64,000 bases of DNA from the NCBI GenBank assembly GCA_964016885.1, contig OZ024748.1, forward strand, positions 48,546,001-48,610,000, written 5' to 3'. Shown piece after piece: positions 19,666-62,648 of the stretch; position 1 is the stretch's first letter; each line of letters opens with the position of its first letter. Under the pieces are notes generated by a model that saw only the letters and a list, made by a program, of their open reading frames with translations, ran no database searches and was not told the DNA's origin. The stretch comes from Eledone cirrhosa (Eukaryota). A program made the position numbers and the translations under genes.

Positions 19666-19789
19666 TTTAATATAGAAAAGGCTTCTACAGGACTAGAACT
19701 GTTTCATTCGAAGGAAATCATCAGGCTTTCCTGATGATTTCCTTCGAATGAAACAGTTCTAGTCCTGTAGAAGCCTTTTCTATATTAAA
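19666..19789. repeat. Perfect inverted repeat, 60-bp arms, 4-nt spacer
   Basis: 19666-19725 is the exact reverse complement of 19730-19789. Confidence 0.97.
19724..19775 (+). ncRNA. Minimal type I hammerhead ribozyme motif (family H1)
   Basis: GGCTTTC-CTGATGA-TTTCCTTCGAAT-GAAA-CAG-TTCTAGTC-CTG-TA-GAAGCC; conserved core present, GUA cleavage triplet. Confidence 0.7.
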
Positions 19790-20429: not shown

Positions 20430-20476
<47 letters not shown>

Positions 20477-20612
20477 TGTAATAAACAACATAATACACGC
20501 ACACATATCAACTATAATAATATACCACCTGTGTTTGTATATACATACATACATATATATATATATATATTGTTTTTATTTAACACTTTTAAATTTATAT
20601 ACACATACACAC

Positions 20613-20797
20613 ATTCCATTTACCAGTGGTTTCTTAAAAGCAAAGAATTTTGCTTTCAATCCTCAGAATGAAAAAATCCTGGTCTGTTTATTGAATTTGT
20701 TTTTAAAATCCAAATTCAATAAACAGACCAGGATTTTTTCATTCTGAGGATTGAAAGCAAAATTCTTTGCTTTTAAGAAACCACTGGTAAATGGAAT
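20613..20797. repeat. Perfect inverted repeat, 87-bp arms, 11-nt spacer
   Basis: 20613-20699 is the reverse complement of 20711-20797. Confidence 0.97.
20738..20796 (+). ncRNA. Minimal type I hammerhead ribozyme motif (family H2); identical copy on the minus strand at 20614-20672
   Basis: TTCATT-CTGAGGA-[TTGAAAGCAAA/ATTC/TTTGCTTTTAA, 11-bp stem II]-GAAA-CCACTGG-TA-AATGGAA; stem III is the quasi-palindrome ACCACTGGT. Confidence 0.8.
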
Positions 20798-20892
20798 AAT
20801 TGCCTTATGTTGTTTATTACATAACTATTAAGCTCTGTTACCTACATAGAGCACTCTTTTTTCCTGGACTTTTCCGACGGAATTACTTCATT

Positions 20893-20983
<91 letters not shown>

Positions 20984-20988
<5 letters not shown>

Positions 20989-21215
20989 TACTTTGGGTGG
21001 GTTATGCTGCCAATAAAACACACGCGCCTGTTGGTTTTCACTTCAATCTTTACAAATTTCCAGCTGGTTGGTTTAATAACTGGATGATCGTTTAACTATT
21101 GTGAAAGCTCTTTCGTTACACATTCTGTTACCTCCTCAGTGACAAATTTATTTTGTGTCTCTCCTTTGTTCTGTCTTACACCATCTTGTGAAATGTGTGC
21201 TGTGTATTTGGGTTG
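20984..21215 (-). mobile_element. PLE-derived repeat with hammerhead motif (family H3)
   Basis: Minus strand TTGTCA-CTGAGGA-GGTAACAGAATGTGTAAC-GAAAGAGCTT-TCACAA at about 21099-21145; homologous to 45293-45515. Confidence 0.7.
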
Positions 21216-21393
21216 TGCACGCATTATATCTGTGACATTTGCAGTTGTCTTTTTCTGATTTTAAATATATTCTGTTATGGCATATATACTGTAAAGCAAC
21301 AGACCCTAGCCACATGCACACACATACACATACACATATACATATATACACACACACATATCAACTATAATAATATGCCACCTGTGTTTGTAT

Positions 21394-21425
<32 letters not shown>

Positions 21426-21584
21426 TGTTTTTATTTAACACTTTTAAATTTATATACACATACACACATTTCATTTTCTATCTCAGCCATCTTAGTGCAA
21501 TAAGAATTTACTTTCCAATCACAAGGTCCTGGGTTCTAACCATTTTATTGCCCATGTAAATAGTTATATCAAGTGAGACCAACC

Positions 21585-46844: not shown

Positions 46845-46985
46845 AGGTCCCGGGTTGAGTCGGGGATAACCACAGTAAGTAAGGTACTCAATACATGGCA
46901 GAGTAAAATTTTTTGACACCCAGCTTCCTGAAGATTTCATCTGAATGAAACAGTACTAGTCCTGTAGAAGCTCCTTCTATAAAAT
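46845..46985 (+). mobile_element. PLE terminal-repeat-like sequence (family H1)
   Basis: CCGGGTTGAGTCGGGGATAACCACAGTAAGTAAGGTACTCAATACATGGCAGAGTA plus hammerhead; a second copy is at 62447-62560. Confidence 0.75.
46922..46972 (+). ncRNA. Minimal type I hammerhead ribozyme motif (family H1), best-formed copy
   Basis: AGCTTC-CTGAAGA-TTTCATCTGAAT-GAAA-CAG-TACTAGTC-CTG-TA-GAAGCT; perfect 6-bp stem I, palindromic ACTAGT in loop III, short stem II with a U-U first pair. Confidence 0.78.
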
Positions 46986-47009
46986 AAAAAAAAAAAAAAA
47001 TATATATAT

Positions 47010-47077
47010 ATTGAAAGCAAAATTTTTTGCTTTTAAGAAACCACTGGTAAATGAAATAATTGCCTTATGTTGTTTAT

Positions 47078-47082
<5 letters not shown>
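47010..47082 (+). mobile_element. 5'-truncated family H2 copy lacking CTGAGGA
   Basis: TTGAAAGCAAAATTTTTTGCTTTTAAGAAACCACTGGTAAATGAAATAATTGCCTTATGTTGTTTATTACAT matches 20751-20822. Confidence 0.85.
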
Positions 47083-47139
<57 letters not shown>

Positions 47140-62446: not shown

Positions 62447-62560
62447 TATTCCGGGTTGAATCGGAGGTAACCACAGTAAGTAAGGTACTCAATACATAGC
62501 AGAGTATTTCTCACGAATGAAACAGTTATAGTCCTGTAGAAGCTCTTCTATATTAAAACT
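62447..62560 (+). mobile_element. Family H1 copy with the CTGANGA part deleted
   Basis: Matches 46849-46905, then jumps to GAATGAAACAGTTATAGTCCTGTAGAAGCT. Confidence 0.8.
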
Positions 62561-62648
62561 TCTACATATATATATGTATATATGTATGTATATATGTGAA
62601 TGTATGTATATATGTATATATATATATTTGTATGTATATGTATGTATA

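What the first reader, a model, noticed from the sequence alone, without database searches (positions are those of the whole stretch)
20613..20797. 87-bp-arm perfect palindrome giving a complete hammerhead on each strand
Seen: an unrelated hammerhead family (CTGAGGA, 11-bp stem II, GAAA-CCACTGG-TA, stem I TTCATT/AATGGA) forms a second perfect head-to-head palindrome 0.8 kb from the first, with an almost palindromic spacer. The solo copy at 47010 differs at two positions that both arms share. Established: minimal PLE hammerheads with palindromic stem III cleave as dimers, normally from tandem direct repeats. Inference: an inverted pair cannot dimerise in cis, so this is either a signature of hairpin-primed second-strand synthesis or a small fold-back element in its own right.
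Basis: partly seen in the sequence, partly recalled or inferred. Interest (0 to 1): 0.75.

Follow-up and report, generated by a model that had tools for sequence, protein, structure and literature searches.

The report
Back-to-back stub of Penelope-like retrotransposon
This DNA palindrome is one of many back-to-back stubs left by an abundant Penelope-like jumping gene, a known kind of insertion; its two unequal ends suggest that both sides of one DNA cut were likely used to copy the same RNA.

Summary
The palindrome is real: 87-bp perfect arms, with a complete type I hammerhead on each strand. It is not an element of its own. It is the end repeat (pLTR) of a young Hydra-clade Penelope-like retroelement (PLE; 3.8-4.3 kb, 711-aa RT/GIY-YIG ORF), 5'-truncated and joined head-to-head to an inverted twin inside (TA)n. 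A 28-mer occurs 3,813 times; 50 of the first 100 copies lie in such pairs. Inverted pLTRs, a one-sided tail and opposite-strand hammerhead pairs are published. Added here: 34 of 35 pairs have one short end and one tail end; the arms share variants (39 of 39 at a polymorphic site); starts pile up about 91 nt before the predicted cut, and not at the cut. Best reading: both cut target ends prime on one RNA at two fixed sites, run off its 5' end and anneal. Fold-back priming stays a real rival. The 87 bp is accidental: a 120-bp local insert breaks the left arm. The 47010 copy lacks the catalytic core. The scan found this class before on other DNA of this genome.

The parts
20436..20469 (.). (TA)n target tract, left side
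   Evidence: family copies end in (TA)n
20470..20493 (-). Outer piece of the short arm; ends at +39 from the predicted cut site, the family's short end
   Evidence: exact match to 20805-20828
20493..20612 (+). ~120-bp insert copied from 21346-21476 (2 substitutions, one 2-nt microsatellite indel); replaces about 7 nt of the short arm, with short junction homologies
20613..20699 (-). Inner part of the short arm (-79 to +8 from the cut)
20615..20672 (-). Type I hammerhead, minus-strand copy; predicted cut after 20621
20696..20710 (+). Junction: 11-nt spacer 20700-20710 is element sequence contiguous with the tailed arm; 1-4 nt shared with the short arm; G20699 is position -91, the family's peak of arm starts
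20699..20892 (+). Tailed arm: pLTR from -91 to +103
20738..20795 (+). Type I hammerhead: stem I 20738-20743/20790-20795, core 20744-20750, stem II 20751-20776, GAAA 20777-20780, palindromic stem III 20780-20788, predicted cut after A20789 (GUA)
20829..20892 (+). 64-nt PLE tail, present on this arm only; continues into the 5' UTR in full elements
20896..20984 (.). (TA)n target tract, right side
21346..21476 (+). Local donor of the insert in the short arm
47010..47083 (+). 5'-truncated short-end copy of the same pLTR, without the CUGANG core; no inverted partner in the window

Best explanation
The palindrome is a truncated insertion of a Hydra-clade Penelope-like retroelement, two copies of its end repeat joined head-to-head in a (TA)n tract, likely made when the element's enzyme primed copies of one RNA from both cut DNA ends. 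Shown: identity with the pLTR of full elements, (TA)n flanks, one short end (+39) with one tail end (+103), shared variants between arms, starts peaking near -91. Inferred: the protein nicks both strands; one end primes at +103 and the other at +39 on the same sense RNA; the trailing copy displaces the leading one; both read through the uncut hammerhead and run off the RNA 5' end, probably a capped start near -91; the two identical cDNA ends anneal through the T/A-rich near-palindrome there and host repair fills in. The hammerheads are passengers here: a read-through RNA would fold into an 87-bp hairpin. A later repair event copied 120 bp of nearby DNA into the left arm.
For: Family: 3,813 exact 28-mer matches, reversed control 0. 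Arms join a 711-aa ORF with YRDD, RWK, DKT, CxCX5C, CxxC and CxH, matching the Hydra description. Orientation: 25 of 28 neighbour pairs within 10 kb are head-to-head among the first 100 hits on C1. End rule: 34 of 35 head-to-head pairs are short+tail (p=2e-9; 198 hits, 42 neighbour pairs); genome-wide 1,762 short ends versus 1,509 continuing into the tail. Same template lineage: N7 G/T agrees in 23 of 23 pairs and in 16 of 16 readable pairs of 20 further loci; arm-arm divergence outside loop II is 1.9% versus 3.3% between loci (28 loci, 0 of 2000 permutations); 9 private variants shared by both arms. Two primings: untailed arm longer by >15 nt in 13 of 43 short pairs versus tailed longer in 3, and in 6 long pairs versus 5; 4 tail arms stop at +35 to +40, where the short copy starts. 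Run-off: an arm starts at -89 to -92 in 8 of 14 short pairs; an extra G before -91 in 15 of 42 truncated versus 0 of 83 read-through arms. Two such cDNA ends anneal at -10.8 versus -1.3 kcal/mol for self-folding, and the duplex includes the pairing seen at this junction. In vitro precedent: a Poseidon PLE cuts and extends both strands, starts at two sites bounding the tail, uses uncut RNA and is modelled as a dimer (PMC11167929).
Against: This locus alone fits fold-back just as well, since the spacer is contiguous with the tailed arm. 27 of 43 short pairs are symmetric within 15 nt, which fold-back also predicts. In the unbiased subset the excess of longer short arms is only 7 versus 3, and later central deletions could make them. 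The stop-at-+39 cluster is weak (p about 0.06). Six of the 15 extra G's can come from the partner arm, leaving 9 arms in 6 loci. Arms often differ in loop II (17.5% versus 23.8% between loci), sometimes by whole haplotypes, which could mean two RNAs. Shared variants could come from later conversion. One pair has two tails (L153). No RNA data; no cleavage shown. Pfam and PDB gave no hit for the ORF, so the clade rests on motifs, not on a tree.
Confidence: 0.55

Rival explanations
1. Fold-back (self-priming): one tail-primed cDNA stops near -91, folds on itself, copies itself back to +39, and is cut or transferred there to the other target end.
For: The spacer here is element sequence on the tailed side with a 4-nt stem; 27 of 43 pairs are symmetric; centres fall on local hairpins, including stem II (L082, L099, L155); arms share variants; self-priming is the published reading of such junctions (PMC3846280, which argues for an antisense template) and EN-mediated resolution the published reading of the tail (PMC8557442).
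Against: The untailed arm is the longer one in 13 of 43 short and 6 long pairs, by up to 2.9 kb (L031); tail-only arms; junction inserts of 5 nt or more in 17 of 43 (some are alignment artefacts); the self-hairpin is very weak.
Confidence: 0.28
2. Double priming on two separate RNA molecules from one active source locus, joined by end-joining.
For: Loop II haplotypes differ between arms in several pairs (L006, L017, L111, L150); long pairs are often very asymmetric.
Against: It does not by itself explain the short+tail rule (34 of 35) or symmetric centres deep in the element (L100 at -2463/-2453, L149 at -664/-664).
Confidence: 0.13
3. A small fold-back or MITE-like element that moves as a palindrome and uses both hammerheads.
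For: Many pairs have similar size because starts pile up near -91.
Against: Junctions differ at each locus; ends are asymmetric; arm lengths run from tens of bases to over 4 kb; the parent encodes RT; a read-through RNA folds into a -141.7 kcal/mol hairpin that hides the ribozyme.
Confidence: 0.02
4. This particular palindrome is an assembly artefact.
For: The arms are 100% identical, and no read or contig spans the locus.
Against: It obeys the family's short+tail rule, has a non-palindromic spacer, and other pairs have diverged arms; family junctions appear in raw reads.
Confidence: 0.02

Closest known systems
Hydra clade of C-terminal EN+ Penelope-like elements (Craig et al. 2021, PMC8557442; passages and section 11 read)
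   Same: Single ORF with C-terminal GIY-YIG-like domain, RWK, DKT, CxCX5C linker, CxxC and CxH, no CCHH, hammerhead in the pLTR, (TA)n targets; inverted 5'-truncated copy and one-sided tail as described for PLEs generally.
   Different: Unit is 3.8-4.3 kb (described as generally <3 kb) because of a microsatellite-rich 3' region with a second hammerhead; tail is 64 nt rather than 30-40.
PLE hammerheads (Cervera & De la Pena 2014, PMC4209133; parts 1-2 of 4 read)
   Same: Type I motif in pLTRs, long helix II, small palindromic helix III predicted to work as a dimer; the paper already reports dual hammerheads ~100-700 bp apart on opposite strands.
   Different: Stem II is 11 bp; no unpaired base before stem II; no assay of this family.
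Adineta vaga Penelope elements (Arkhipova et al. 2013, PMC3846280; passages and discussion read)
   Same: Head-to-head inverted pLTRs, palindromes at the junction, tail on one pLTR, TATA-like box about 20 nt before a putative start.
   Different: Explained there by self-priming on an antisense template; the census here favours two primings on a sense RNA.
Poseidon PAc in vitro (Frangieh et al. 2024, PMC11167929; parts 1-2 of 4 read)
   Same: Two RT start sites bounding the tail, both strands cut and extended, AT-rich targets, uncut RNA as template.
   Different: That work saw no difference in start site between strands and did not address inverted products; here the two ends of one insertion almost always differ.
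Animal non-LTR retrozymes (bioRxiv 10.64898/2026.07.22.740005; part 1 of 5 read)
   Same: Type I hammerhead related to PLE pLTRs.
   Different: Retrozymes are short non-coding tandem units; this is the stub of a coding element.

Membership tests
Hydra-clade PLE | Single ORF, RT followed by C-terminal GIY-YIG endonuclease | tested here: met
   711-aa ORF with YRDD at 346 and a VYEA...YVG motif near the C-terminus. RT and GIY-YIG motif identities are recalled; Pfam and PDB gave no hit.
Hydra-clade PLE | RWK motif and DKG changed to DKT | tested here: met
   RWK at 37, DKT at 114 (definition)
Hydra-clade PLE | CxCX5C linker, no CCHH, CxxC and CxH around the E and N residues | tested here: met
   CxCX5C at 556, CxxC at 659, CxH at 690; no cysteines between the GIY and YIG halves
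Hydra-clade PLE | (TA)n insertions and hammerhead in the pLTR | tested here: met
Hydra-clade PLE | Placement in the clade by RT phylogeny | not tested
   no reference sequences at hand
Hydra-clade PLE | Generally short (<3 kb) | tested here: not met
   unit 3.8-4.3 kb; a tendency in the paper, not a defining rule
Neptune/Nematis PLE | CX2-5CxxC linker and CCHH motif | tested here: not met
   pattern absent
Type I hammerhead ribozyme | CUGANGA, GAAA and NUH core with stems I-III | tested here: met
   CTGANGA in 162 of 170 pLTR motifs, GAAA 168, UA 168 (the search itself required likeness)
Type I hammerhead ribozyme | Covariation in stems | tested here: inconclusive
   Common read variants in stems are one-sided: 3 of 4 keep pairing (20741, 20774, 20794), one opens the loop-closing pair (20761); none in invariant core positions; no two-sided change seen
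Type I hammerhead ribozyme | Self-cleavage | not testable with these tools
   Indirect test: no excess of copies starting at the cut (14 at +1, 16 at -3, 5 at +4)
Fold-back element / MITE | Constant unit with symmetric terminal inverted repeats | tested here: not met
   variable centres, short+tail ends
Non-LTR retrozyme | Short non-coding tandem units, each with a hammerhead | tested here: not met
   coding parent; inverted, not tandem

The most novel reading that the evidence does not exclude
Inverted PLE insertions are twin-primed: one protein dimer puts its two RTs on the two fixed start sites of a single sense RNA, one per cut target end, and the short palindromes record that RNA's capped 5' end. 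In full elements the upstream hammerhead copy, with an uncleavable GUG site in 37 of 41 motifs but an intact core, would act as a built-in enzyme-only partner that allows one cut per unit.
Probability: 0.4. Interest if true: 0.55.

Novelty: new member of a known kind. Interest (0 to 1): 0.28.

Why it matters
The object itself is ordinary PLE debris, and opposite-strand hammerhead pairs are in print. What has some value is the census: how PLEs build inverted ends and the one-sided tail is called an open question in PMC8557442 and PMC11167929, and a young family with intact ORFs and a near-strict short+tail rule gives sharp predictions for an existing in vitro assay. I found no paper proposing twin priming for PLEs in two searches (open-licence library only).

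Tried and rejected
Rfam scan of the window: 296 matches, the 150 listed all microRNA models below their gathering scores; no hammerhead among those listed. Whole-window inverted-repeat search was swamped by microsatellites. Pfam and PDB gave nothing for the ORF; the Atlas gave no answer. No RNA holder listed, so start site, cleavage and editing could not be examined. Laying reads on the locus-specific insert junction was uninformative. My first clade guess, Neptune, was rejected on motifs. The idea that copies start at the hammerhead cut, prompted by L160, L164 and L113, failed genome-wide: 14 versus 16 and 5 at control offsets. Selection on the upstream hammerhead's core cannot be claimed: it is only about 10-15% diverged and the search required likeness. 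In the predicted heterodimers only the stem I of the uncleavable half is in the minimum-energy fold. A sequence look-up of earlier findings returned nothing. Rows dropped before the counts: L146 (a pair of upstream hammerheads), L073 (duplicate of L069), L018 (same locus as L150). No tblastn hit of this ORF in the window.

Full report
Observation. Window 20613-20699 is the exact reverse complement of 20711-20797 (87 bp, 11-nt spacer). A descriptor search finds a type I hammerhead on both strands, cores at 20744 (+) and 20666 (-). The monomer is marginal (z about -1.3 against shuffles). The palindromic stem III lets two copies pair over 8 of 9 positions: the explicit dimer scores -29.4 kcal/mol against 2 x -10.2. 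An RNA through both arms would form one hairpin of -141.7 kcal/mol. The copy at 47010-47083 differs at two positions but lacks the CUGANG core. The true left arm continues at 20470-20493; between lies a ~120-bp insert copied from 21346-21476.

What it belongs to. A search of the own genome with the right arm gave 47 matches among 40 scored of 126 candidates, 93-100% identical where full length. A 28-mer has 3,813 exact matches. Flanks show the arm is the 3' repeat of a longer element. A protein search found many open frames of 714-715 codons. Full units of 3.8-4.3 kb read: pLTR with hammerhead, tail, 5' UTR, ORF, a second diverged hammerhead, microsatellite-rich DNA, pLTR, tail; they occur in tandem and inverted arrays. 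The ORF has the motifs given for the Hydra clade and lacks those of Neptune. Pfam and PDB gave no support either way; no tree was built.

Census. Positions below count from the predicted cut. Among the first 100 of the 3,813 hits (all on C1), 28 neighbour pairs lie within 10 kb: 25 head-to-head (15 under 600 bp), 1 tail-to-tail, 2 tandem. Copies end at +35/+39 or about +103, then (TA)n. In one subfamily there are 1,762 short ends and 1,509 copies continuing into the tail. In the merged lists (198 hits, 42 neighbour pairs) 35 pairs are head-to-head and 34 of these are short+tail; the exception is a palindrome with two tails (L153). These lists partly overlap the first sample. The window locus follows the rule: short arm left, tailed arm right.

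Template. The N7 G/T polymorphism agrees between arms in 23 of 23 pairs and in 16 of 16 readable pairs among 20 further loci. Outside loop II the arms differ at 47 of 2,478 positions (1.9%) against 3.3% between loci; in loop II at 17.5% against 23.8%. Nine private variants are shared by both arms and 44 lie on one arm. This shows a shared lineage; it does not separate one RNA from two RNAs of one source, or from later conversion.

Inner ends. Of 43 short pairs (18 chosen by likeness to the query, 25 not, including the window), 27 are symmetric within 15 nt, the untailed arm is longer in 13 and the tailed arm in 3; unbiased subset 15, 7, 3 (a few rows, such as L119, are misjudged by strict alignment). 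Among 27 loci mapped to full units, resolved long pairs are untailed-longer in 6, tailed-longer in 5 and symmetric in 3; the rest were not resolved. Four tail arms stop at +35 to +40 (L007, L031, L050, L110; weak, p about 0.06 with a conservative n). Starts pile up at -89 to -92 (8 of 14 short pairs); the window's tailed arm starts at -91. An extra G precedes -91 in 15 of 42 truncated and 0 of 83 read-through arms, 9 arms in 6 loci unambiguously. That fits copying of a cap (recalled knowledge), and a TATA-like word lies about 20 nt upstream. There is no pile-up at the cut site (14, against 16 and 5).

Mechanism. Shown: identity, target, end rule, shared variants, start peak. Inferred: both target ends prime on one sense RNA at +103 and +39, read through the uncut hammerhead, run off near -91 and anneal. 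Two such cDNA ends pair at -10.8 kcal/mol against -1.3 for self-folding. Fold-back of a single tail-primed cDNA explains this locus and the symmetric majority, but needs secondary deletions for pairs with a longer untailed arm. I put these at 0.55 and 0.28.

The hammerhead. Common read variants in stems are one-sided, three of four keep pairing, and none falls in invariant core positions (90% likeness filter). In full elements an upstream copy lies 1.19-1.45 kb away in direct orientation; 37 of 41 such motifs have G at the cleavage position with an intact core, and pairing with the terminal copy through stem III is predicted. It could be the cis partner; this is untested.

Literature. PMC4209133 (parts 1-2 of 4) reports PLE hammerheads, dimer dependence, low activity, and dual motifs 100-700 bp apart on opposite strands. 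PMC3846280 (passages, discussion) describes head-to-head palindromic junctions and a tail on one pLTR, and proposes self-priming. PMC8557442 (passages, section 11) describes inverted truncated copies, the one-sided tail and the Hydra clade. PMC11167929 (parts 1-2 of 4) shows two start sites and extension of both strands. The retrozyme preprint was read in part 1 of 5. No supplements were read. Searches for twin priming or self-priming with Penelope returned no paper, by its listing, that proposes twin priming for PLEs; searches added nothing.

Earlier scan notes describe the same class in other families of this genome with a similar mechanism. They are unreviewed and not independent support; they pointed me to Hydra and to the cap test.

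Verdict. Real, ordinary in kind, a new member of a known class. Modest interest, for the testable end rule.

Noticed in passing
window 19666-19789: Neighbouring palindrome of an unrelated hammerhead family: 59-bp perfect arms, 6-nt spacer that forms the 5' strand of stem I on the + strand only. Related pieces at 46925-46981 and 62506-62568.
   Followed up: partly
window 20493-20612 and 21346-21476: A 120-bp local templated insertion into one arm of the palindrome, with short junction homologies; looks like repair of a break in the arm. Two substitutions from the donor while the arms are identical may mean copying from the other allele.
   Followed up: partly
L152:6992-7098, L134:6693-6788, L033:8543-8647: Second hammerhead in each full element, with G at the cleavage position in 37 of 41 motifs and an intact core; possible enzyme-only dimer partner.
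   Followed up: partly
stem II loop, window 20760-20766, across loci: About nine times more arm-to-arm differences than the rest of the arm (17.5% versus 1.9%), with recurring haplotypes on both N7 backgrounds; mutation hotspot or template switching.
   Followed up: partly
L160 (G000:C1:126774200-126775700): Both arms carry the 5' UTR joined to position +1 of the hammerhead cut, next to the start codon: a deleted mini-derivative, a template jump or a ligated RNA.
   Followed up: no
L053 (G000:C1:3570819-3571084): Rare tail-to-tail pair with two tails around a TA tract.
   Followed up: no
window 46920-47083: A hammerhead of the other family, a poly(A) run and the truncated copy of this family lie next to each other, nested in a TA tract.
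   Followed up: no
window 20985-21190: End of another abundant repeat directly right of the insertion; similar sequence flanks L025-L027, so several families seem to share these TA tracts.
   Followed up: no
L069 and L073; L035 and L039: Near-identical loci 1.2 Mb and 11 Mb apart on one contig; segmental duplicates or haplotype duplicates in the assembly.
   Followed up: no
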